Part shown: one piece after another, positions 1,939-39,182 of the stretch
How the letters are laid out: every line of letters begins with the position of its first letter
Numbering within the stretch: the stretch's first letter is position 1
Sequence record: PP496998.1
Length of the DNA: 64,000 nt
Direction: 5' to 3' (one strand)
From: Escherichia phage EC.W14-3
Notes under the pieces: generated by a model
Databases searched by the model: none
What the model was told of the DNA's origin: nothing
The model's input: only the letters and a program-made list of their open reading frames with translations
Made by a program: the position numbers and the translations under genes

Positions 1939-3783
1939 GTGAGCAACCCGGACGCTCTTCCATTTTTGACAGAGATGACTGTCGCTGATATAATCTCTAA
2001 GCAAGCAAAGCACGGAGTTAGTTTCAACCGAAGAAATGCTCGGTGGTATGTTCACCTCCTTAAAGAGATTATTGTTAATATTGACAGAGAGTTGATTCCT
2101 CTCTTACCTAAGATGAGATTAGATGGCTCTACTTATATGAAGCCGTTTAAGAAGTCTGGAGCTTTACAGAAGTGGCCTCAAGCTTATTGTGATAGGGTTG
2201 GGCTGAAAAGAGAAGACATTGGTGGAGCATTCACCTGTGTCGAATATGTAGACTTTGATCCATCGAAAGATGCACGAGTTAAAGAAGCTCTTATGGATGA
2301 GGGCTTTCTTCCTCCAGAGTTTAACGTATCTAAGAAGCCTTGGAATACTTTCGAAATTAAGAAAGATATGAGAAAGTATGGAACATACCAAGCATGGTAT
2401 ACTGCTTGGATGCGAGGTAATGCTAAACAGAAGCAGACAGCCGAGATGGTTGACGCTGATATTAGAAAGTTCTTAGAGAAGCATTTTCGGTTTAAAACTA
2501 AGAACTACATGAAGGCTTACGTATTTGGTTTGGGATTAAACCCTAATCGCCGTAATCCTGTAACGTTTGATGAGATTAAGAAAGCACTAGCCACATCAAA
2601 CAAGTGGCCTACAGCTCCTACAAACCTCGAGGAGACTCTTGAAGAAGGGTTAGGGGGTGAGCTAGGGAGTGTCGGAAGTTTGCTTAAGAGACGCGTTGTG
2701 GCGGCTCACAGGCTAGGTCTTATCAGTGGACTCATAGCAAAGGAACGCGAAGATGGTAAACTTTCGGCAGAAGCTAACAGCTGCGCTACGCCGACTTTTC
2801 GATTCAAACATCGTATCGTGGTTAATATTCCCTCCCGTGGTCTGTTTGGTCACGAGTGTCGCAGTTTGTTTGAGTCTGACTATAACTCAGACAGTGATCA
2901 CTCTCGTCCTTTCGTTATTACTAACGTTGTTCCTGATGGTTGTTATATACGAAAAGGTACTAACGTAATTTACGAGAAAGGTAAGCCGGGGAAGAAAGAC
3001 AAACCTGTAGGCGCTTACAAATATTACATACCCACTGGTAAAGAAGTATTCTTAGGGTATGATGGTTCTGGACTGGAACTTCGTATGCTCGCTCACTACC
3101 TCATTAAAGAGTGTAGGGATATGCTTGCTGAGGCAATTGAAGAGAACAACCCAGCTAAGAAAGCTCTGGCAGAACGTGGTTTAGCTTCTGCTATTATGTA
3201 TCGTGATATTCTCCTTGAAGGTGATATCCACTCCCACAACCAGAAACTTGCTGGTCTTCCTACTCGTGACAACGCTAAGACATTTATCTATGCATTCAAC
3301 TACGGTGCTGGCGATGCTAAGCTTGGTTCAATTGTAGGTGGTGGGGCTGACGAAGGTTCAGTGATGCGAGCACGTTTCTTAGCAGAGAACCCATGTATTG
3401 CAATCCTCATTGATCGTATGACAGAGAAAGCTGCTCAAGGATACTTGATTGGAGTTGATGGTCGTAAGATTACAATGAGACGGGATGCCACTGGTAAGGT
3501 TATGGTTCATAAAGCCCTTAACACACTCCTGCAATGTGCTGGTGCTGTTGTTATGAAATATGCTATGATGTTCCTTAACAAGTGGATTGAGAAAGATAAG
3601 GTTCGTTGTGCTAAGGTAATTGATATGCACGATGAAGGTCAATTCTCAGTAAACCGTAATGATGTACAGAAACTCAAAGAGCACACTGAGCTTTGTGTTA
3701 AGAAAGCTGGCGAGTATCTGAACATGGAATGTCCTCTGGCATCTGATTGTCAGATTGGACTTAACTGGATGCATACACACTAA
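1939..3783 (+). CDS. DNA polymerase, family A (T7-like), polymerase domain
   Basis: motif KTFIYAFNYGAGDAKLG and surrounding palm/fingers-like sequence; 614 aa; no 3'-5' exonuclease Exo motifs seen in the N-terminal region. Confidence 0.85.
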   Translation: MSNPDALPFLTEMTVADIISKQAKHGVSFNRRNARWYVHLLKEIIVNIDRELIPLLPKMRLDGSTYMKPFKKSGALQKWPQAYCDRVGLKREDIGGAFTCVEYVDFDPSKDARVKEALMDEGFLPPEFNVSKKPWNTFEIKKDMRKYGTYQAWYTAWMRGNAKQKQTAEMVDADIRKFLEKHFRFKTKNYMKAYVFGLGLNPNRRNPVTFDEIKKALATSNKWPTAPTNLEETLEEGLGGELGSVGSLLKRRVVAAHRLGLISGLIAKEREDGKLSAEANSCATPTFRFKHRIVVNIPSRGLFGHECRSLFESDYNSDSDHSRPFVITNVVPDGCYIRKGTNVIYEKGKPGKKDKPVGAYKYYIPTGKEVFLGYDGSGLELRMLAHYLIKECRDMLAEAIEENNPAKKALAERGLASAIMYRDILLEGDIHSHNQKLAGLPTRDNAKTFIYAFNYGAGDAKLGSIVGGGADEGSVMRARFLAENPCIAILIDRMTEKAAQGYLIGVDGRKITMRRDATGKVMVHKALNTLLQCAGAVVMKYAMMFLNKWIEKDKVRCAKVIDMHDEGQFSVNRNDVQKLKEHTELCVKKAGEYLNMECPLASDCQIGLNWMHTH

Positions 3784-3788
3784 GGTGA

Positions 3789-4157
3789 GTGATGAAAGAA
3801 ACCAATATCATCTACAGAACATTGAGATGTTTAGCTAAAGAGAGGGGGATGGAGGATTTCCTCCTCCAATATTATGAAATAACTAAGACTGGAATTTATC
3901 CAAAATGGTTTAGTGAAGATCACGGATTATGCTTCAACTTTCGCTGTTATAAGAGGTATTACTATTTCACAAAGCATTTAGATATTGACGACATGAAGAA
4001 TATGTTTAATCAAGAAAAGTTTTTGGACCCAACATACCCATTCGGATGTTATCAATATTTTAGAGATAGGGAAAACGGGGCACATCATAAGAATCCAAAA
4101 CGACGGGCTTGGATTAAAGATACACTGAAAACTCTGTACAGTATTGAGGTTGAGTGA
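3789..4157 (+). CDS. hypothetical protein
   Basis: ORF track; no motif recognised. Confidence 0.4.
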   Translation: MMKETNIIYRTLRCLAKERGMEDFLLQYYEITKTGIYPKWFSEDHGLCFNFRCYKRYYYFTKHLDIDDMKNMFNQEKFLDPTYPFGCYQYFRDRENGAHHKNPKRRAWIKDTLKTLYSIEVE

Positions 4158-4348
4158 TGAGTGTTCGTGGTTATTATGAATCTTGGGCCGTCTTCAGCGG
4201 TGGCTCCACTCTCGTAGCATTAAATGGTCAACTGTGTATCTTTGAGACAGAGAACTTAGCAATAACCAAAGCAGCAGAGCTAGTTCGAAAGTTTCCAAAC
4301 AAGACATTCACAGTTAAAAGGATAGAAGTACCTGCATTGGTAGAGTGA
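4154..4348 (+). CDS. hypothetical protein
   Basis: ORF track; ATGA overlap with upstream gene. Confidence 0.35.
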   Translation: MMSVRGYYESWAVFSGGSTLVALNGQLCIFETENLAITKAAELVRKFPNKTFTVKRIEVPALVE

Positions 4349-4531
4349 ATAAATAAGACGAATGAACTATTCTTATTGATTGGTTCGTAACAAGGAGATT
4401 GAAGTGGAAGAGATGCCATCGGATTGGTGTTATCGTCAGAGCGCCATCTGTAATGAACAAGGTCGTCCTGATGAGGCTGAGTTCTATCTAGAGCTAGCCG
4501 AACTGTGGAAAGAACGAGAGGAGAAAGAGTG

Positions 4532-4699
4532 ATGGAAGGTATTTACCGTAAACCGCCTCCAAAATATAACATCCTTTATACTGATGCAACAGGTGAGTTT
4601 AGAAGTGTGTTAGTTTACACGGATGAAGAACGAAACCAAATGGTTGCTGCTATTGAAGCCAATGGTGGTACAATCATGCGAATTTATAACATAACATAA
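4532..4699 (+). CDS. small hypothetical protein
   Basis: internal ATG (MEGIYRK) of ORF 4505..4699. Confidence 0.3.
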   Translation: MEGIYRKPPPKYNILYTDATGEFRSVLVYTDEERNQMVAAIEANGGTIMRIYNIT

Positions 4700-4708
4700 G
4701 GAATATCA

Positions 4709-4885
4709 ATGACTGCTTCTGAATTAAAAGAAACCCTATCCACTGAAGAAGGTAAAGCTTTCTTCTTATCTCAAGTACACTCTATGGGTAAAGATGCCCT
4801 TCGCCAAGCAGTCGTTGAGCTTACTGGTGTAGTGATTGACTTGAGTATTGAAAATGAAACACTTGAAGCTAAAGTGAACGGTTAA
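4709..4885 (+). CDS. small hypothetical protein (58 aa)
   Basis: ATG with upstream AAGGAA; below ORF-track cutoff. Confidence 0.3.
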   Translation: MTASELKETLSTEEGKAFFLSQVHSMGKDALRQAVVELTGVVIDLSIENETLEAKVNG

Positions 4886-4892
4886 ATAAGAA

Positions 4893-4914
4893 GCTGCCTT
4901 CGGGCGGCTTTTCT
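4893..4914 (+). terminator. rho-independent terminator-like hairpin
   Basis: GCTGCC-TTCG-GGCGGC followed by TTTT. Confidence 0.45.
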
Positions 4915-5324
4915 TGTCTAAAGGATTTGACATGAATATTGGTTTAGATTATGATGACACTTACACAGCAGATAGACGTCTGTGGAGAGATGTGATAGGA
5001 TTGATGAAAGGGTATGGACATGATGTAAGATTCGTGACTTTCCGTTTCTCAGAGCCTAATGGTTATGATAACGTGGATATCCTCTATGATGCAGAGACCC
5101 TGCAAATCCCTGTCATCTTTTGTAATGGTGTGCAGAAGGATGAGGTGTGTCGACAGTTAGGTTTCTTCGTCGATATCTGGATTGATGACTTCCCTGTTGG
5201 AATCCCCAAAAAGGACCACCTAGATGGTATGCTGAAGGGCGTAAGACTTAATGACCTTAGGGCAGCACCTCCTGTAGAAATAGCCGCTCCTGTGTACTCT
5301 GAAGAGCCTTTGGTGATTCGATGA
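4914..5324 (+). CDS. hypothetical protein with HAD-like DxD motif (possible phosphatase/nucleotidase)
   Basis: N-terminal IGLDYDDT and later WIDD resemble HAD motifs I and III; weak. Confidence 0.3.
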   Translation: MSKGFDMNIGLDYDDTYTADRRLWRDVIGLMKGYGHDVRFVTFRFSEPNGYDNVDILYDAETLQIPVIFCNGVQKDEVCRQLGFFVDIWIDDFPVGIPKKDHLDGMLKGVRLNDLRAAPPVEIAAPVYSEEPLVIR

Positions 5325-7751: not shown

Positions 7752-7776
7752 AGCCACCTCCGGGTGGCTTTTTTCG
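7752..7776 (+). terminator. rho-independent terminator
   Basis: AGCCACC-TCCG-GGTGGCT followed by TTTTTT. Confidence 0.6.
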
Positions 7777-7787
7777 TTGGAGACAAC

Positions 7788-8138
7788 ATGCAAAACACAT
7801 TAAGTGATAACTTAGGGTTTATCGTTTTCTCAGCTCTTGTATTCTTTGGTGGTATGAAGTTTAACGAATATCAAACAGACAGCAGTAATCTGGACAAAGA
7901 GAAGCACCAGCAAGAGTTAGAGATTGAAAGAAGTAGAGCAGCTGATGAAGTTGCTCAGAGAGTTCTTACCGGTTTATCTAACTGGAAGAAGAACACAGAA
8001 ACCGTTTATAAAGAGATGCATTATGAGAAAACTAAACCAGTTTTTTATGATGTCTGCGCTAGTGATGACTATGTCCGCATGTTCAATGATCGACAGCAGC
8101 AGGCAATCAATGCCCTTACCAACAAACCTAAAAGCTGA
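7788..8138 (+). CDS. i-spanin (Rz-like) candidate
   Basis: N-terminal TM helix LGFIVFSALVFFGG then coiled-coil-like periplasmic region; an embedded lipoprotein ORF in the +1 frame. Confidence 0.5.
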   Translation: MQNTLSDNLGFIVFSALVFFGGMKFNEYQTDSSNLDKEKHQQELEIERSRAADEVAQRVLTGLSNWKKNTETVYKEMHYEKTKPVFYDVCASDDYVRMFNDRQQQAINALTNKPKS

Positions 8139-8282
8139 ATGCAGGGTTGACTTACCTTTTTTAGAGAGTGCTCAAGGAAAAGCACTAGCCACTACGTTGG
8201 AGTGGTATCAGGACCAGTACACAGAATGTGCTGCCAATCACAATGGATTGTTAGAAGCTCTGAAAGAGCGTGGAATAGAATA

Positions 8283-8283
<1 letters not shown>
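8023..8283 (+). CDS. o-spanin (Rz1-like lipoprotein) candidate, overlapping the Rz frame
   Basis: ATG inside the Rz gene in another frame; signal peptide ending in lipobox-like MSAC; extends past the Rz stop. Confidence 0.45.
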
Positions 8284-9769
<1,486 letters not shown>

Positions 9770-33138: not shown

Positions 33139-33891
33139 TTATACACGAGAAGTACGAATACCATAAATATCAGGCAAGCTGCTCTGAAGCCGAGTCATGT
33201 TATTCGGAATTGCGATAGGTGAACCTGAGTACTCTTGTTTCTTATTCTGCTCTACCATTTCATCAAGGATAGCTTTTCCTAATGCTGACCATTTCTGAAC
33301 ACCGTTATCATCTTGAACAAAGAGACAAGCATGACGTAGGGTGAAGTACAGAAGAAGTTCTGGTGCGATAGTAAGAATAGCACTGGTATCTGTATCTTCG
33401 TGGAATTCCGGTGGGTCTGCATAATAGCTAAGAATCACTGAGTTTTCTGCTGGAATTAAAGGGCTTCCATCATCAGGATAAACAGGAGTATCTGCTTCAA
33501 TACTAGGGTAGAAAATGAAACGACTCCCGAAACGAGCAAAGTTAACAGGTTGGTTATTCCAGTGAGATGGATTAATTGTTCCATGCTGTCTACGATAGCT
33601 AATCTCCTCAGGAGAGGTTACTTGGAAGATTGTACCATCTTTGGCTCTCATCATCCATTGAGCTTCTAAGTAATCAGGAGGAATATAAGCTACTCCATCT
33701 TTGATATCTAAATACACTTCTTTTTCCAGAGGAGGAATACGTAAGTTACGATAAATCTCTTTCTCTGCAAAGTTAATAAAGTTTGGAATTTGATTAACAA
33801 ATTCATCGTCGTCCCTATCTGCCCAGAGGGCCACGGCCTTCTTTAGCCACCCATAGGTATTGATGGGGTATTGAACATCTGGCATTGCCAT
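33139..33891 (-). CDS. virion protein (head-tail adaptor or tail protein, putative)
   Basis: 250 aa; position after capsid genes; preceded by terminator and TAATGTATA motif. Confidence 0.35.
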   Translation of the reverse strand: MAMPDVQYPINTYGWLKKAVALWADRDDDEFVNQIPNFINFAEKEIYRNLRIPPLEKEVYLDIKDGVAYIPPDYLEAQWMMRAKDGTIFQVTSPEEISYRRQHGTINPSHWNNQPVNFARFGSRFIFYPSIEADTPVYPDDGSPLIPAENSVILSYYADPPEFHEDTDTSAILTIAPELLLYFTLRHACLFVQDDNGVQKWSALGKAILDEMVEQNKKQEYSGSPIAIPNNMTRLQSSLPDIYGIRTSRV

Positions 33892-33924
33892 AGGTTGTCC
33901 TCCTTGTTATATGTAGACAAAGAA

Positions 33925-33933
33925 TATACATTA
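33925..33933 (-). promoter_or_regulatory. TAATGTATA motif, candidate phage-sigma promoter upstream of 33139..33891
   Basis: exact 9-mer (as reverse complement) about 35 nt upstream of the ATG, just after a terminator hairpin. Confidence 0.4.
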
Positions 33934-33961
33934 CACACTAGCTTGTATAGGTCTTAAAACG

Positions 33962-33990
33962 AAAAAACCCCGCCCGAAGGCAGGGTCTGA
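33962..33990 (-). terminator. rho-independent terminator after the capsid genes
   Basis: CCCTGCC-TTCG-GGCGGGG hairpin followed by TTTTTT on the minus strand. Confidence 0.55.
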
Positions 33991-33992
33991 TT

Positions 33993-34535
33993 TTAAGCAG
34001 GTGTTACACCAGTAAAAGTGCATGTTGCATTGATGGACGGGTCAGCTGTCAAACTTGCTTGAACAGTAACTTCGCCACTTGCAGCAGCATCTAAGGTTAA
34101 CGCACCAGCGGCGCTTACTGTACCGGCTTCTGTAGGAGTTACAACAAACGTGTAATCCGCAGCAGCAGAGTTAGTTACAGTAAACATGGTAGTGAAATTA
34201 GTGGAAGAACCACCAGTTTTACCCGTAATTGGACCCTTAGCTACAATAGTAGGAGCAGGAGCAACAATTTCAGAAATGGTTGCTGTACCAGAAACACCTT
34301 CTAAAGTTGCAGTAATGGATACATCAGTGGATTGAGACGCACTCGGAGCAGTATACAAACCAGACTGAGTGATAGAACCACCTCCTGTCACTGACCAAGT
34401 AAAGCCAGTTGTTTCGGTAGAACCATCACTTTTCTCCGCGCTTGCAGTGAACTGCCGAGTAGCCCCTGTCTCTAGACTTGCTAAAGACGCAGGGCTAACA
34501 GTCACACTGTCTACTGTTACGCCGCCACCTTTCCC
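33993..34535 (-). CDS. Ig-like (Big_2-type) domain ORF in the -1 frame of the capsid gene; likely expressed as a frameshift extension
   Basis: no SD upstream of its GTG; frame open back across the capsid stop; slippery heptamer GGGAAAG at 34529..34535; Thr/Ser/Gly-rich beta-sandwich-like sequence. Confidence 0.45.
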   Translation of the reverse strand, partial: GKGGGVTVDSVTVSPASLASLETGATRQFTASAEKSDGSTETTGFTWSVTGGGSITQSGLYTAPSASQSTDVSITATLEGVSGTATISEIVAPAPTIVAKGPITGKTGGSSTNFTTMFTVTNSAAADYTFVVTPTEAGTVSAAGALTLDAAASGEVTVQASLTADPSINATCTFTGVTPA

Positions 34536-35575
34536 GCAGCAGTGAACAGAACGCCGGAAGCATACGGGTTGCGGTGACGCAGACCAACTTCCATTTCAAT
34601 CATCCACTTCTCGTAAGAACCGTCTTTAGCCAGTTCAGTACGTTTCGGAGCACGCAGAACCATCTGAGTCCAGTCAGCGCTACGGAAGAAGTAAACTGCA
34701 TCGGTAGGCATCCAACGGTTAACGATGATTTTGTAGCTCTGGCCCAGCGGGTCAGTGATGCTGTTAACTTCGTAGATGAACTGCTTGGTGTTCTCAAAGA
34801 TACGCTTACGTGAACCCTGAGTATTTTCTTGCAGACCAGCAAAGATCTTAGCATGAGCCGGGTTAATCATGATGATATCTGCTTCAGAACCAGCGGTATA
34901 CAGTTGCAGAGTCATATCAAAGATATCAGCTTCGTCGAAACCAATGTTAGTGGTCGGGTTAGAAGCATTCTGTGCAACTTTAACAGTTACTGCACCAGTG
35001 TCCGGGTCAGCAGGACCATTCTTGGTCTTGTCAACAACGCCACCAGCCAGACCACCGTGAGCACACAGGAACTGGAATGCACCAGTCTTACGAGCTGCAT
35101 GGGTGTCATTCAGACCAACAACAGCAGGATCAGTTGCAGAGTTAGTCAGATACTGGTCAGCCAGAACGTCGGTACGAGCCTGACCGGACAGAAGGATTTT
35201 CTCGAGGTCACGCTTGATCTCTTTACCTTTCTTCTCCAGCTGATACATCAGTTCACGACCACGACCGTAGTTAGCGGTGGTGTTAGCAGTATCAGAAACA
35301 CGAACAACCTTACGCAGAATCTGAGTAACGTTAGATTTGATAACAGTCGGTTTCATTTCACCGTCTTCAGCACGAGAGCCTTCGACGTGTGCGTTATTAC
35401 CGTCAACGCTTGCCAGTGCATCGGTCTGCCAGCTAAAGATAGTCTGGTTGATAGACTCTTTACCGGTCATAGATACGAACGGGGTATCCTGAGGGGACAG
35501 AACAGAAATCCAGTTAGCAAAAGAAAGTTTTTTACCATTCTGGTCATACGATACAAATAAAGTTGGATTAGCCAT
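34517..35575 (-). CDS. major capsid protein (putative)
   Basis: 352 aa; directly after scaffold-like gene, followed by Ig-like extension and strong terminator; TAGGAG SD. Confidence 0.6.
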   Translation of the reverse strand: MANPTLFVSYDQNGKKLSFANWISVLSPQDTPFVSMTGKESINQTIFSWQTDALASVDGNNAHVEGSRAEDGEMKPTVIKSNVTQILRKVVRVSDTANTTANYGRGRELMYQLEKKGKEIKRDLEKILLSGQARTDVLADQYLTNSATDPAVVGLNDTHAARKTGAFQFLCAHGGLAGGVVDKTKNGPADPDTGAVTVKVAQNASNPTTNIGFDEADIFDMTLQLYTAGSEADIIMINPAHAKIFAGLQENTQGSRKRIFENTKQFIYEVNSITDPLGQSYKIIVNRWMPTDAVYFFRSADWTQMVLRAPKRTELAKDGSYEKWMIEMEVGLRHRNPYASGVLFTAAGKVAA

Positions 35576-35616
35576 GTTATGTTAGCTCCTATACTATTAA
35601 TAATTTAATTTGTCGA

Positions 35617-36693
35617 TTAATCTACGAGGAATTTGAATGCGTCTTCGTGACTAACGCGACCCTCTGCGAATGCCTTGGCAACCTTAGCGTTGTCGGGCTT
35701 ATTGGAAGTGCGAGACTTTGCAGCATCAGACTTCACAACCTTGCGTGGAGCACCGGGACGTTTAATCTTAGCCATCACCTGTTGCTTACCTTTATCAAAT
35801 TGGTATGCTTTGTGGAGAGCTAGGAAAATAGACGGACGGTTTTCCTTCAATACTTCTTCTTCAGTAGCACCTAAGTCAATTGCGTATTGCATTAAGTTTT
35901 GATATAAGTTTTCATCCCAATTTGGAATCTCACGTTTCAGAATATTAACACATTCAATACTCTTGGCTTGGAAAGCTTCCTGCTCTTTAGCTGCTGCTTC
36001 CTGCTTAATACGGACCTGAGCCTGTTCAAGCTGTTGACGGCGAGCTGTGTACTTCTCTAGGAAACGTTTGTTTTCAACATATGCTTGAGGATCTTCTACT
36101 GCAAGCTTGTCCCAATCAAAACCGTTATAATCTTCAATTACTCGGTCTGCTTCTAAAGACGCTAGTTCTAATACATCCTTCAAACCTACTACACGTTCCT
36201 CGAATGCTTCCATATGACGCTGAAGAGTTGATTCTCGTTCTGTCATATCAGCACCAGTAAGATAGCCATTAGAAAGTTCTTCAATAGTCATCTCACGTCC
36301 ATCAGGAAGGGTGATAACGGTTTCGTAGTCTACATCAAAGACTTCACCTTCACCGTCAGCAGAATCATCTTCATACTCTGCATCGCTTGAATCTTCTTCC
36401 TCTTGTTCTTCTGCTTCAGAGGATTCGTCTTCATCTTCTTCGACTTCGCCTTCCTCTTCACGATCTTCCCAACCATCTTCATCTTCGAACTTAAGCTCAT
36501 CGCTTTCACCGAGAAGGTCGGTATCAAAGTCGAAATCGTCACCGTCTTTTTCCGGGAACTCATCGTCAATGTCCACTTCTGGTTCTTGTTCAGATTCTAA
36601 TCGACCGAGTTCTTCTTTGAAAGAACCTTTCAGGTCATCCAGTTGGAGGAAAGATTTAAAATCGTTCGGGTCAATATAATTATCTTGTGGCAT
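35617..36693 (-). CDS. scaffolding protein (putative)
   Basis: highly acidic N-terminal half (runs of E/D) and helical C-terminal half; between portal and capsid. Confidence 0.5.
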   Translation of the reverse strand: MPQDNYIDPNDFKSFLQLDDLKGSFKEELGRLESEQEPEVDIDDEFPEKDGDDFDFDTDLLGESDELKFEDEDGWEDREEEGEVEEDEDESSEAEEQEEEDSSDAEYEDDSADGEGEVFDVDYETVITLPDGREMTIEELSNGYLTGADMTERESTLQRHMEAFEERVVGLKDVLELASLEADRVIEDYNGFDWDKLAVEDPQAYVENKRFLEKYTARRQQLEQAQVRIKQEAAAKEQEAFQAKSIECVNILKREIPNWDENLYQNLMQYAIDLGATEEEVLKENRPSIFLALHKAYQFDKGKQQVMAKIKRPGAPRKVVKSDAAKSRTSNKPDNAKVAKAFAEGRVSHEDAFKFLVD

Positions 36694-36938: not shown

Positions 36939-39182
36939 TTAGTTTTTACTTCCAAGACGTTTGCCTGGAATCCGTGAATCTTTGAGAGAAGCTTGTTGCT
37001 CTTTCTTAGTTACATTAGCTTCTTTCTTTTGGAGTTCCAAAGTTTTATCCTGAACACGAGCTTGCTGAACAATCTTCTCTTGGTCTACCTGATGCTCCAT
37101 AACCATCTGCAATTCTTTCAGTACAGACTCATACTGACGGACCTGCTGTTGCATAAGAGCTAACTTGTGCTTAGCTTGTTCCAGAGTAGCATTGTTATCC
37201 TCTTTACGGTTTTCCAGAGTCATAGCATCTGCTGCATTTTCTTGCTTGAACTGCAACTCTTCCTGACGCAGACTTAATTCATCCGCAGCTTTCTGCTGTT
37301 CGAATGTAGTACGTTCACGTTGGTCGAATGCATCAGCAATCATCTTCTGAGAAGAAGCCTGTACGTTCTCAACCTGTGCTTTAGTCATCTCGAGTTGGAG
37401 GATTTCCATTGGAGACGGCTCAGGAGGCTGATACTGTTCCAGAGGCAGTAAGTATTTATGAGTGTCCTTAATACCCATCAACTCAAAGATCTGTGCAGTC
37501 ATGTAACGGTCTTGCTCCAAACCGAAGAGAGGTGCTAACTGTGCATCTGCTGCAATCAGCTGTTTCAAGCTAATCAGTTTCTGTGCACGTTCTGCTTTCT
37601 CATTAGGAGAGATAGCTACAACAACTTGAAGATTGTGACGAGCTGGCAATTGTTTCGGATTTACCTGAACCATACCACGAGGGGTTTGTACCTCAATAGG
37701 AACTTCACCATTTTCTCTGATAAGGCTGTAAATACCACGCATCAATTCAACCATACCATTGTGAGCAATGTTACGACATACCATACGGAGACGGTTCTGT
37801 GCAGCATTCATCATCAAGCCTACAGTTGCATAAGCGTTATCATTCTTAAACACATCAGGGTTGATACCCATGCCTAGTTTGGTTACACCTGTACGTGTCT
37901 CTTTAAGCTCCTCAGACATGCCTAGGAGGCCGTCAATACCTTGAGGTAGGTTATGGTATGGGAACAGGTCAATAGCGTCCTGACGTTCCATTTCAACCAC
38001 TCCACCGGGACGGTTATCAAGCAGAGAGCGACGGTCGTATGCACCAACAAGAGCTTTGTATCGACCATAGTTAGCATTGTTGACGTTATCAATATAACCA
38101 CGAACTAACGCGGTACGTAAATCTTGAATATCTTTCGTAATGTCATAGACCGATTGACCATAGAAGGAACCCGGAATCGGATATGGGCAGAAGGTTACAA
38201 ACGGAATGTGAGTTACTTCTTCAGTGTGAAGGATATGCTCACCAGCTTGGATAACCTGATAGAGTTTAGACTCTTTATTCTTATCTAGAACACCAGTACG
38301 AATGTAGTGCTCGTAAACCCAAACCATAGAAGCGATATCTTCGGTATCTGTACCAATATCAGCATCAATATCTTGACGCCAGTCAGTACGAGACCAAGCA
38401 ACTGTAGATTGAGTAGTATCCATCGTGTCTGTCCAGTCGTTGAATGCTTCAATCTCATCTTTAGGGAAGCCCATAGCAACCAGATCTTCTTTAGAACGAC
38501 GTACACGATGACAGAAGTATTGTGCATCTGCAAAAGAGGTAGCATGTTCATCAACAAAGATTTGCTCTGAAGGAACATATTCAACTTTCACACGTTTAAC
38601 AGTTTGTTCGTAAGTAACTTTAACATCGACTGTACCGTCTTCATTTTCTTCAGTGAAGACTTCCAGATTCTTGAGTCCACCAGCTTCTAATCCCTGAACA
38701 TATGCAGCCAATGCTTCCGGTGGTACACCTTCAGCTTCTTCAGTTTGAGTAGAAGTTTGTTCATCCCAATAATACTTGATAAAAGAGTTACGAGTAACTA
38801 GACATTCTTGTGCAGCAGAAGAGATAATATTGTATCCCGGATTATCACGCAGAAGAATTTGGTTAACTAATTTAGTTGCTACATCAGCAGCATCAGAATC
38901 CTGTTGGTTGTCAGCTACGAAAGTAACTGCTTCATCACCAGAACAGAATACGTTAATAATATCTTGCAATGTACCGTTAACAGATTCCCAAACAGTACGA
39001 TCTACCCAACTAGAGCTGCCAGCAGTTACTGGTGCAGGTAAGTTACCATAGAAATATTCCCAAGCTTCACGAGCATAGCCCTTAACAGCCATGTCCACGT
39101 AACCTTGAGCGTAATTAAAACGACGTTGAAGGTCAACACGTAACTCGTCCAACACCTCTTCACTATATTTTTGCTTAGCCAT
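36939..39182 (-). CDS. portal protein (putative)
   Basis: 747 aa directly after the large terminase; C-terminal coiled coil. Confidence 0.6.
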   Translation of the reverse strand: MAKQKYSEEVLDELRVDLQRRFNYAQGYVDMAVKGYAREAWEYFYGNLPAPVTAGSSSWVDRTVWESVNGTLQDIINVFCSGDEAVTFVADNQQDSDAADVATKLVNQILLRDNPGYNIISSAAQECLVTRNSFIKYYWDEQTSTQTEEAEGVPPEALAAYVQGLEAGGLKNLEVFTEENEDGTVDVKVTYEQTVKRVKVEYVPSEQIFVDEHATSFADAQYFCHRVRRSKEDLVAMGFPKDEIEAFNDWTDTMDTTQSTVAWSRTDWRQDIDADIGTDTEDIASMVWVYEHYIRTGVLDKNKESKLYQVIQAGEHILHTEEVTHIPFVTFCPYPIPGSFYGQSVYDITKDIQDLRTALVRGYIDNVNNANYGRYKALVGAYDRRSLLDNRPGGVVEMERQDAIDLFPYHNLPQGIDGLLGMSEELKETRTGVTKLGMGINPDVFKNDNAYATVGLMMNAAQNRLRMVCRNIAHNGMVELMRGIYSLIRENGEVPIEVQTPRGMVQVNPKQLPARHNLQVVVAISPNEKAERAQKLISLKQLIAADAQLAPLFGLEQDRYMTAQIFELMGIKDTHKYLLPLEQYQPPEPSPMEILQLEMTKAQVENVQASSQKMIADAFDQRERTTFEQQKAADELSLRQEELQFKQENAADAMTLENRKEDNNATLEQAKHKLALMQQQVRQYESVLKELQMVMEHQVDQEKIVQQARVQDKTLELQKKEANVTKKEQQASLKDSRIPGKRLGSKN

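What the first reader, a model, noticed from the sequence alone, without database searches (positions are those of the whole stretch)
33993..34535. Candidate -1 programmed frameshift fusing the major capsid protein to an Ig-like domain
The capsid ORF ends ...ACT GCT GCG GGA AAG GTG GCG GCG TAA. It contains the lambda G/GT-type slippery heptamer G GGA AAG (34529..34535 as reverse complement), four codons before the stop. The -1 frame is open from this point through the downstream 170-aa ORF, which has no SD of its own and a Thr/Ser/Gly-rich Ig-like sequence. A possible stimulatory hairpin (AGCCCTG...CAGGGGCT) lies about 20 nt downstream. This would give a minor capsid species with a C-terminal Ig-like decoration domain, analogous to T7 10A/10B.
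Basis: partly seen in the sequence, partly recalled or inferred. Interest (0 to 1): 0.65.

Follow-up and report, generated by a model that had tools for sequence, protein, structure and literature searches.

The report
Known capsid frameshift adding Ig-like domains
The capsid gene of this phiEco32-like E. coli phage does carry a ribosome-slipping site that makes a minor, longer capsid protein ending in two antibody-like domains, but this is already published and annotated for the phage group, so it is a correct re-discovery and not a new finding.

Summary
The window is a Kuravirus (phiEco32/SU10-like) coliphage. It is 100% identical to phage SkaterBoy_Bas90 over the locus, and its junction is identical to that of phiEco32. 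The sequence facts hold. An in-phase G GGA AAG lies at 34535..34529 (- strand), four codons before the stop of the major capsid gene. The -1 frame is open from there to 33993. The predicted product is MCP residues 1-349 plus 178 aa, 527 aa and 55.6 kDa, against 352 aa and 38.7 kDa.

The heptamer alone occurs at chance frequency. The support comes from comparison. All 24 distinct Kuravirus-type junctions keep the heptamer, its phase and an open -1 ORF of 174-545 aa, while the first possible start codon in that ORF moves about. The extension is under purifying selection and folds as two tandem Big_2 Ig-like domains, and the first strand begins upstream of the annotated GTG.

The frameshift is already described for phiEco32, SU10, Privateer and YF01, and is annotated as a joined CDS in RefSeq for phage Paul.

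One correction: the proposed hairpin starts 32-33 nt after the heptamer, which is 20 nt after the stop. It is conserved and has one covarying pair, but it is not at canonical stimulator spacing.

Verdict: real, interpretation supported, already known, low interest.

The parts
34517..35575 (-). Major capsid protein gene, 0 frame. 352 aa, 38.7 kDa.
   Evidence: ORF list. Pfam SU10_MCP, E 9e-77. Matches the solved SU10 major head protein 7z45 over residues 1-350.
34529..34535 (-). Slippery heptamer G GGA AAG, in phase as X XXY YYZ. The Gly and Lys codons occupy the P and A sites. It is the same heptamer as the phage lambda G/GT site.
   Evidence: Read directly. It is the only in-phase heptamer in the last 50 codons. 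It is kept in all 24 distinct Kuravirus-type junctions.
34517..34519 (-). 0-frame TAA stop of the short capsid form, three codons (9 nt) after the heptamer. It also forms the first three bases of hairpin H1.
33993..34529 (-). -1 frame extension of 178 codons plus a stop. It encodes a Gly-rich linker (GGG) followed by two tandem Big_2-type Ig-like domains. The full long isoform is join(35575..34529, 34529..33993): 527 aa, 55.6 kDa.
   Evidence: Translation. Pfam Big_2. AF2 pLDDT 96.6 with strands from residue 6. Foldseek match to LigA 8gyr, E 1.7e-10. dN/dS 0.14-0.28.
34503..34505 (-). GTG used by GenBank annotators as the start of a separate 'Ig domain containing protein'. It is probably not a real initiation site.
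   Evidence: No Shine-Dalgarno sequence upstream. In relatives the first start codon in the -1 ORF lies at +8, +14, +35, +86 or +128. Gene callers produce at least seven different N-termini. Beta-strand A (residues 6-12) spans this codon, which is residue 9.
34496..34519 (-). Hairpin H1: 7-bp stem TAACAGT / ACTGTTA with a 10-nt loop, 9 nt after the heptamer (12 nt in the Paul/YF01 clade). A candidate proximal stimulator, but A/U-rich.
   Evidence: The arms are essentially invariant in 19 sequences (one sequence breaks one pair), while the loop varies at most synonymous sites. There is no covariation, so the structure is not proven.
34461..34496 (-). It starts 32-33 nt after the heptamer. It can be extended by 34505..34497 pairing with 34455..34447.
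   Evidence: MFE fold. RNAalifold consensus. The pair at 34485-34471 is U-A in 8 sequences, G-C in 8 and A-U in 3, with none of 19 broken. The pair at 34484-34472 is G-C in 12 and U-G in 5.
33965..33988 (-). Intrinsic terminator immediately after the stop of the Ig ORF. It ends the MCP plus extension transcription unit.
   Evidence: Terminator scan: 10-bp stem, 6 GC pairs, T-run. SU10 annotates a terminator at the same place.

Best explanation
This is the programmed -1 ribosomal frameshift site of the Kuravirus (phiEco32-like) major capsid gene.

Most ribosomes read GCG GGA AAG GTG GCG GCG TAA and release the 352-aa capsid protein. A minority slip back one base on G GGA AAG: the P-site tRNA-Gly re-pairs from GGA to GGG and the A-site tRNA-Lys from AAG to AAA. 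They then continue in the -1 frame through a GGG linker and two Big_2 Ig-like domains to the TAA at 33993..33995. The result is a 527-aa, 55.6-kDa minor capsid species that would display the Ig-like domains on the head surface.

Shown here:
- the sequence geometry;
- conservation of the site, its phase and the -1 ORF;
- the lack of any conserved independent start;
- purifying selection on the extension and its Ig-like fold;
- a single transcription unit.

Taken from the literature: the long product exists in virions of phiEco32, whose junction is identical, and of Privateer.

Inferred:
- tandem-slippage details and efficiency;
- surface display of the Ig domains;
- any stimulatory role of hairpins H1 or H2;
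- the function of the Ig domains (weak adhesion to carbohydrate or cell surfaces, as generally proposed for phage Ig-like domains).
For: - Heptamer, phase and open -1 frame.
- Outlier among in-phase heptamers in the window: 178 aa against a median of 5 aa.
- All 24 distinct Kuravirus-type junctions keep GCG GGA AAG in phase with a -1 ORF of 174-545 aa, while the first start codon in that ORF wanders.
- Database ORF calls begin at seven or more different residues.
- The Big_2 match begins at residue 8 of the translation from the heptamer. AF2 strand A spans residues 6-12 of the extension, upstream of the GTG at residue 9.
- dN/dS is 0.14-0.28 with dS up to 1.4.
- The terminator comes only after the Ig ORF, and no promoter or terminator lies between the ORFs.
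- Other lineages also place Ig-like domains in the -1 frame right after the MCP. In the Privateer type, an I-set domain starts at residue 2 after the slip site.
- Literature: SU10 GGGAAAG slippage 'as in phiEco32' (PMC4281155). Privateer, with two bands and mass spectrometry (PMC7881722). Group-wide description (PMC9965538).
PMID 18294652', and in YF01.
- The junction is 201/201 identical to phiEco32.
Against: - There are no protein data for this particular phage. Its own GenBank record (SkaterBoy_Bas90) annotates two separate CDSs.
- The primary phiEco32 paper could not be read here, so its evidence is second-hand.
- The SU10 cryo-EM study saw no extra capsid density. The YF01 paper adds that no long band was seen on SDS-PAGE in that study. 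This is explained by a 1-nt insertion in SU10 that puts a TAG in the -1 frame.
- The SU10 mass-spectrometry coverage figures do not require any Ig-domain peptide: 50.29% of 527 aa is about 265 aa, and 78.1% of 352 aa is about 275 aa.
- The heptamer count is at chance.
- No strong structure sits 5-8 nt downstream, and fold z-scores are unremarkable.
Confidence: 0.9

Rival explanations
1. The 170-aa ORF is a separate gene that initiates on its own at GTG 34505, as annotated in most GenBank records. It would give a free 17-kDa Ig-like protein, a possible detachable decoration protein, and the heptamer would be incidental.
For: GenBank and RefSeq records for SkaterBoy_Bas90, ShigP1, CHD5UKE1, SU10 and others annotate a separate CDS. 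The SU10 cryo-EM authors treat gp10 as a separate protein. GGGAAAG occurs at chance frequency in the window.
Against: There is no Shine-Dalgarno sequence within 20 nt of the GTG, while neighbouring genes have AGGAG or AAGGAGG. The GTG is not conserved: in relatives the first start codon in the ORF is at +8, +35, +86 or +128, which would cut away the first strands of the Big_2 domain. Codons upstream of the GTG (VTVDS) are conserved at the protein level in the -1 frame with synonymous changes, including AGT to TCC for Ser. Strand A of the modelled domain begins upstream of the GTG. Long forms are reported in virions of relatives.
Confidence: 0.05
2. Termination-reinitiation. Ribosomes that terminate at the MCP TAA (34517) scan 11 nt and restart at GTG 34505, which couples a free Ig-like protein to MCP translation.
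For: The distance from stop to GTG is short (11 nt) and the two ORFs share one transcription unit.
Against: The same points on start-codon non-conservation and domain truncation apply as for independent initiation. In many relatives the nearest start codon is 86-128 nt beyond the stop. This mechanism would not explain the strict conservation of the in-phase heptamer.
Confidence: 0.03
3. The site is a relic. The heptamer no longer shifts at a useful rate and the Ig ORF is not expressed in this phage, as appears to be the case in SU10.
For: SU10 has lost the extension through a frame-breaking insertion and is still viable, so the long isoform is dispensable at least in the laboratory.
Against: The window's -1 ORF is intact, identical to that of phiEco32 and under purifying selection. 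SU10 is the only exception among 24 junctions.
Confidence: 0.02

Closest known systems
phiEco32 major head protein gp11 and its frameshifted gp11-gp12 long form (Savalia et al. 2008, PMID 18294652); also SU10 CDS9+10, phage Paul gp009 and YF01 gp8
   Same: The same gene family (Pfam SU10_MCP), the same heptamer GGGAAAG at the same distance from the stop, and the same -1 Ig-like extension. The junction is 201/201 nt identical to phiEco32. The long form is annotated as a joined CDS in Paul and YF01.
   Different: No mechanistic difference. The extension is 178 aa here, as in phiEco32, against about 545 aa in Paul and YF01. In SU10 it is truncated after 7 aa by a 1-nt insertion.
Proteus phage Privateer major and minor capsid proteins (PMC7881722)
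   Same: The same heptamer in a homologous MCP (about 57% identity). The extension is in the -1 frame and Ig-like (I-set plus Big_2). Two bands and mass-spectrometry detection were reported.
   Different: In contig L016, whose length of 90,710 nt matches the 90.7-kb Privateer genome, and in its relative L017, the stop follows the heptamer directly (G GGA AAG TAA) with no 3-4 codon tail. The identification of L016 with Privateer rests on length only. The downstream sequence and structures are unrelated.
Phage lambda G/GT tail-assembly-chaperone frameshift
   Same: The identical slippery heptamer G GGA AAG and -1 direction, in an E. coli host, with a low-percentage shift (established knowledge; the 3.5% figure is quoted).
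   Different: It occurs in tail chaperone genes and not in the capsid gene. The product is an assembly chaperone and not a virion surface domain.
T7/T3 gene 10A/10B capsid frameshift
   Same: A -1 shift near the 3' end of the major capsid gene of a podophage gives a minor, C-terminally extended capsid species (about 10%, as quoted).
   Different: A different slippery sequence, and a short extension in T7 (my own knowledge, not tested here). T7 needs a distant 3' element. Homology of the sites was not tested.
Salmonella phage 7-11 gp008/gp009 and relatives (tandem MCP genes)
   Same: They also produce a short MCP (312 aa) and a long MCP carrying C-terminal Big_2 domains (585 aa) from homologous genes.
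   Different: There is no frameshift. The gene is duplicated, the Ig domains are fused in frame to the second copy, and a rho-independent terminator is annotated between the copies.

Membership tests
Programmed -1 ribosomal frameshift site (tandem-slippage, X XXY YYZ type) | Heptamer X XXY YYZ in phase with the upstream (0) reading frame | tested here: met
   G GGA AAG at 34535..34529 with codons GCG|GGA|AAG.
Programmed -1 ribosomal frameshift site (tandem-slippage, X XXY YYZ type) | The -1 frame is open across the site and extends well beyond the 0-frame stop into coding sequence | tested here: met
   Open from -76 to +524 nt relative to the stop. The extension is 178 aa, with Big_2 domains and dN/dS 0.14-0.28.
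Programmed -1 ribosomal frameshift site (tandem-slippage, X XXY YYZ type) | The site and the frame relationship are conserved among diverged relatives | tested here: met
   All 24 distinct Kuravirus-type junctions keep it; SU10 alone has an early -1 stop. The Privateer-type lineage keeps the same heptamer.
Programmed -1 ribosomal frameshift site (tandem-slippage, X XXY YYZ type) | A stimulatory element (downstream structure 5-9 nt away, or an upstream SD-like sequence) | tested here: inconclusive
   H1 is a 7-bp A/U-rich stem at 9 nt (12 nt in one clade). It is invariant, so there is no covariation. H2 has covariation but starts 32-33 nt away. Fold z-scores are -0.3 to -0.9. No Rfam family matches.
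Programmed -1 ribosomal frameshift site (tandem-slippage, X XXY YYZ type) | Two protein products that share an N-terminus, with a trans-frame junction peptide | not testable with these tools
   Only literature on relatives is available: Privateer, SU10 (weak) and phiEco32 (cited; the paper could not be read).
Kuravirus / phiEco32-like MCP long isoform | An MCP of the SU10_MCP family in a phiEco32-like structural module (portal, scaffold, MCP, adaptor) | tested here: met
   Pfam SU10_MCP, SU10_portal and SU10_adaptor. 98.7-100% nucleotide identity to phiEco32 and SkaterBoy_Bas90.
Kuravirus / phiEco32-like MCP long isoform | GGGAAAG a few codons before the MCP stop, with an Ig-like ORF in the -1 frame | tested here: met
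   It matches the description in PMC9965538 and the RefSeq Paul note.
Big_2 bacterial Ig-like domain (PF02368) | A sequence match above Pfam's gathering score, and an Ig-like beta-sandwich fold | tested here: met
   24.8 bits against a cut-off of 22.8. AF2 pLDDT 96.6, all-beta, two domains. The top structural match is LigA tandem Big_2, E 1.7e-10, TM 0.56.
T7 10A/10B-type capsid frameshift | Homology of the slip site and the extension to T7/T3 gene 10 | not tested
   The analogy rests on logic only. The heptamer and the extension differ, by my own knowledge and by the citation.

The most novel reading that the evidence does not exclude
The frameshift itself is known, but two points do not appear in the papers I could read.

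1. A conserved hairpin with compensatory changes (H2, 34461..34496) sits one ribosome footprint (about 32 nt) downstream of the slip site. It could tune frameshift efficiency non-canonically, for example by pausing the leading ribosome so that a trailing one stalls on the heptamer. Alternatively it could act together with the proximal H1 stem.

2. Across prolate podophages the pairing of a short and a long capsid protein is kept by interchangeable genetic means:
- the canonical heptamer;
- the heptamer abutting the stop;
- a possible non-canonical G GUA AAG site with a GC hairpin 6 nt downstream, in contigs L010-L012 and (without a comparable hairpin) in the Lahexavirus Aeromonas phage LAh_8, where it is not annotated;
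- tandem duplicated capsid genes with an in-frame Ig fusion and a terminator between them.
Probability: 0.3. Interest if true: 0.35.

Novelty: already known. Interest (0 to 1): 0.15.

Why it matters
Practically, most GenBank records of this phage group, including the record identical to this window, still annotate the extension as a separate 'Ig domain containing protein' with an arbitrary start. The correct annotation is a joined CDS. That affects proteomics search databases and phage-therapy dossiers, because Kuraviruses are used against pathogenic E. coli.

Biologically, Ig-like domains displayed at low copy on the head are thought to mediate weak adhesion to surfaces or glycans. The length of the extension varies widely between close relatives, which suggests it is an adaptive, exchangeable module. 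None of this is new in principle.

Tried and rejected
- Heptamer significance by count alone was rejected: 7 observed against 7.35 expected.
- Single-sequence folding of the junction gave z-scores of -0.92 and -0.31, so thermodynamics alone gives no support.
- An extended H1 that pairs GGUGGCGG with GCCCUGC appears in the truncated fold. Relatives such as ECBP2 and Bas93 break it (read from the alignment), so it was rejected.
- The stem-loop proposed by Mirzaei et al., which encloses the heptamer (CTGCTGC...GCGGCGG), is also picked up by RNAalifold at columns 1-35. It is nearly invariant, and a ribosome sitting on the heptamer would have melted it. It is not informative and is unlikely to be a stimulator.
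- AF2 without an alignment gave pLDDT 54.5 and was discarded. The run with 25 sequences gave 96.6.
- Savalia et al. 2008 could not be read by PMC id or PubMed id.
- The Rfam scan gave only sub-threshold hits on the terminator.
- The only other long -1 extension behind an in-phase heptamer, TTTTTTA in ORF 7924..8283 (+), lies among small overlapping annotated early genes with ordinary start/stop overlaps. I did not pursue it as a frameshift.
- One protein alignment call failed because of wrong coordinates and was repeated.

Full report
**What the window is.** Region 33900..35700 is 100% identical to Escherichia phage SkaterBoy_Bas90 and 98.7% identical to phiEco32. 125 phage records match, nearly all of them Kuravirus-like prolate podophages. 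Pfam assigns the neighbouring ORFs on the - strand to SU10_portal (36939..39182), SU10_MCP (34517..35575) and SU10_adaptor (33139..33891). The 170-aa ORF between the MCP and adaptor genes matches Big_2.

**Checking the observation.**
- On the - strand the capsid gene ends ...ACT GCT GCG GGA AAG GTG GCG GCG TAA.
- G GGA AAG occupies 34535..34529 and is in phase as X XXY YYZ. The TAA is at 34519..34517.
- After a -1 slip the reading is GGG AAA GGT GGC GGC GTA ACA GTA GAC AGT GTG ACT..., that is K-GGGVTVDSVTVSPAS... This frame is open from 76 nt upstream of the stop to the TAA at 33993..33995.
- The predicted products are 352 aa (38.7 kDa) and 349 + 178 = 527 aa (55.6 kDa). These match the 38.5 and 55.4 kDa listed for SU10.
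- The GTG at 34505 has no Shine-Dalgarno core in the 20 nt before it. The MCP and adaptor genes have AGGAG and AAGGAGG.

**Is it more than chance?**
- The heptamer alone is not: 7 copies in the window against 7.35 ± 2.8 in shuffles.
- The configuration is unusual. Among 38 in-phase X XXY YYZ heptamers in all ORFs of at least 100 aa in the window, the median -1 extension is 5 aa and the 95th percentile is 56 aa. This site gives 178 aa.
- The only other long case, TTTTTTA at about 8160, lies among small overlapping annotated early genes and looks ordinary.

**Comparative evidence.** I collected relatives from IMG/VR, metagenomes and GenBank.
- All 24 distinct Kuravirus-type junctions keep GCG GGA AAG in phase, three to five codons before the stop (three or four in all but Bas93), with a -1 ORF of 174 to about 545 aa. 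SU10 is the single exception.
- In SU10 a 1-nt insertion creates a TAG in the -1 frame, as the YF01 paper also noted.
- The first ATG, GTG or TTG in the -1 ORF lies at +8, +14, +35, +86 or +128 nt from the stop in different phages.
- Gene callers in public databases give the 'Ig protein' at least seven different N-termini. Most of these remove the first strands of the domain.
- The first Ig domain evolves with dN/dS of 0.14-0.28 while dS reaches 1.1-1.4. The heptamer is therefore conserved against a saturated synonymous background.
- The residues VTVDS upstream of the annotated GTG are conserved in the -1 frame through synonymous changes, including AGT to TCC for Ser.

**The extension.**
- With an alignment of 25 sequences, AlphaFold gives pLDDT 96.6 and two all-beta domains. 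The first strand spans residues 6-12, so it begins before the GTG codon at residue 9. The single-sequence run was unusable.
- Foldseek's best match is the tandem Big_2 segment of Leptospira LigA (E 1.7e-10, TM 0.56). It is followed by invasin, S-layer, titin and NCAM Ig domains.
- The MCP part matches the solved SU10 head protein 7z45 over residues 1-350.

**Transcription.** A strong intrinsic terminator (33988..33965) follows the Ig ORF. No terminator or promoter lies between the MCP stop and the Ig ORF. The two ORFs therefore lie in one transcription unit, which fits a single translational unit.

**Stimulatory elements.** I aligned 19 distinct junctions.
- H1 (TAACAGT / ACTGTTA, 34519..34496) is a 7-bp A/U-rich stem, 9 nt after the heptamer and 12 nt in the Paul clade. 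Its arms are essentially invariant, while four synonymous positions in its 10-nt loop vary. This is suggestive, but without covariation it is not proof.
  - The pair at 34485-34471 is U-A in 8 sequences, G-C in 8 and A-U in 3, with none broken. The 3' partner changes the amino acid (E/Q, P, L) in step with a synonymous Ser codon change on the 5' side.
  - The pair at 34484-34472 is G-C in 12 sequences and U-G in 5.
  - 96.8% of cells are paired, against about 31-53% in the slid controls. The covariation score is only a little above the -1 slide (0.150 against 0.137).
  - I read H2 as a real, conserved RNA hairpin, but it is too far away to sit at the mRNA entrance when the heptamer is being decoded.
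- An alternative extended H1 is broken in relatives.
- The stem-loop proposed by Mirzaei et al. encloses the heptamer itself and cannot act in the canonical way.
- No Rfam family matches.
- Which element, if any, stimulates the shift remains open.

**What is already known.**
- Mirzaei et al. [quoted passage not shown]
- Corban et al. 2021 (Privateer) report the same heptamer, two gel bands and mass-spectrometry detection, and say the product was observed in phiEco32 and SU10.
- The YF01 paper describes the short and long isoforms for the whole Kuravirus-like group, and the SU10 exception.
YF01 also carries a joined CDS.
- The 201-nt junction of the window is identical to that of phiEco32.
- The finding is therefore a correct re-discovery.
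- Caveats: I could not read Savalia 2008. The SU10 coverage figures (50.29% of 527 aa is no more than 78.1% of 352 aa) can be met by capsid peptides alone. The SU10 cryo-EM paper saw no extra density, and the YF01 paper reports that no long band was seen there. All three fit the broken -1 frame in SU10.

**Wider family.**
- Privateer-type contigs have G GGA AAG TAA, with an I-set domain starting at residue 2 after the slip site.
- Contigs L010-L012 and the Lahexavirus Aeromonas phage LAh_8 (L013) have CTG AAG GTA AAG, which is not X XXY YYZ, yet they keep a -1 Ig-like ORF. In L010-L012 a GC hairpin (GCGCCC-CUAC-GGGCGU) lies 6 nt after the AAG; LAh_8 has no comparable hairpin. In LAh_8 the ORF is annotated as a 74-aa 'tail protein'.
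- Salmonella phage 7-11 and its relatives have two capsid genes instead: one of 312 aa and one of 585 aa with an in-frame Big_2 extension. A terminator is annotated between them.
- Crifsvirus phages and some metagenomic contigs have two to four tandem capsid paralogs.
- The short-plus-long capsid arrangement thus appears to be maintained by different genetic means. This is my inference, and it is the only part of the analysis with any novelty.

**Verdict.** The mechanism is a -1 programmed frameshift at G GGA AAG (confidence 0.9). Novelty: already known. Interest: low.

Noticed in passing
L002 (SU10, NC_027395) 1654-1777; corresponds to window 34503..34512: SU10 has a 1-nt insertion in the H1 loop (GACACTGTCTACTG against GACAGTGTGACTG). 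This puts a TAG in the -1 frame 7 codons after the MCP stop. The published SU10 mass-spectrometry coverage for 'CDS9+10' (50.29% of 527 aa, about 265 aa) is no larger than that for CDS9 alone (78.1% of 352 aa, about 275 aa). It therefore does not show any Ig-domain peptide.
   Followed up: partly
L023 / L056 (Salmonella phage 7-11, NC_015938) 2491-5267; also L019 and L036: Instead of a frameshift there are two tandem capsid genes. One is 312 aa. The other is 585 aa and is fused in frame to Big_2 domains. A rho-independent terminator is annotated between them. This is a different genetic route to a short and a long capsid protein.
   Followed up: partly
L010-L012 4412-4440; L013 / L055 (Aeromonas phage LAh_8): The MCP ends CTG AAG GTA AAG GCG TAA, which is not a canonical heptamer, yet a -1 ORF of 167-169 aa with Big_2 domains follows. 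In L010-L012 a GC hairpin (GCGCCC-CUAC-GGGCGU) begins 6 nt after the AAG. LAh_8 ends ...AAG CCC TAA, its -1 ORF is 88 aa, and it has no comparable hairpin; its ORF is annotated as a separate 74-aa 'tail protein'. This may be an unannotated non-canonical frameshift.
   Followed up: partly
L015 114-4433 (IMG/VR contig of 124,877 nt); L020; L014; L053/L054 (Crifsvirus): There are two to four tandem paralogs of the capsid gene, each starting MATLxSYDLNGKKLSFANW. Some carry C-terminal extensions in frame. None has a -1 extension.
   Followed up: no
window 34547..34600 (- strand), MCP codons EMEVGLRHRN: Eight consecutive codons (GAA GTT GGT CTG CGT CAC CGC AAC) show no synonymous variation in 24 Kuravirus sequences. 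The surrounding 54 nt are 94-96% identical even in most of the Aeromonas, Salmonella and Cronobacter phage records matched, whose MCP genes are otherwise about 73% identical. The stretch is also present in capsid genes without a frameshift, so it is not a frameshift element. The cause is unknown; it could be codon optimisation or an RNA- or DNA-level element.
   Followed up: partly
phage records MZ417522.1 (Mycolicibacterium phage J1, 24,953 bp) and PP350014.1 (phage PH444, 114,913 bp): A record labelled as a Mycolicibacterium phage carries a junction 99.5% identical to this E. coli Kuravirus. An oversized 115-kb record also carries the locus. These probably reflect contamination or chimeric assembly in the public records.
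   Followed up: no
L025, L026, L040, L043-L051 (-1 ORF after the MCP): The length of the Ig-like extension varies from 174 to about 545 aa among phages whose MCPs are at least 93% identical. This indicates frequent gain and loss of Ig-like domain modules downstream of a fixed first domain.
   Followed up: partly
window 7764..8723 (+ strand): An in-phase TTTTTTA in ORF 7924..8283 is followed by a 186-aa -1 ORF. The SkaterBoy record annotates small overlapping genes here (Rz-like spanin, hypothetical protein, phosphatase) with ordinary start/stop overlap. It looks like normal gene overlap and not a frameshift.
   Followed up: partly
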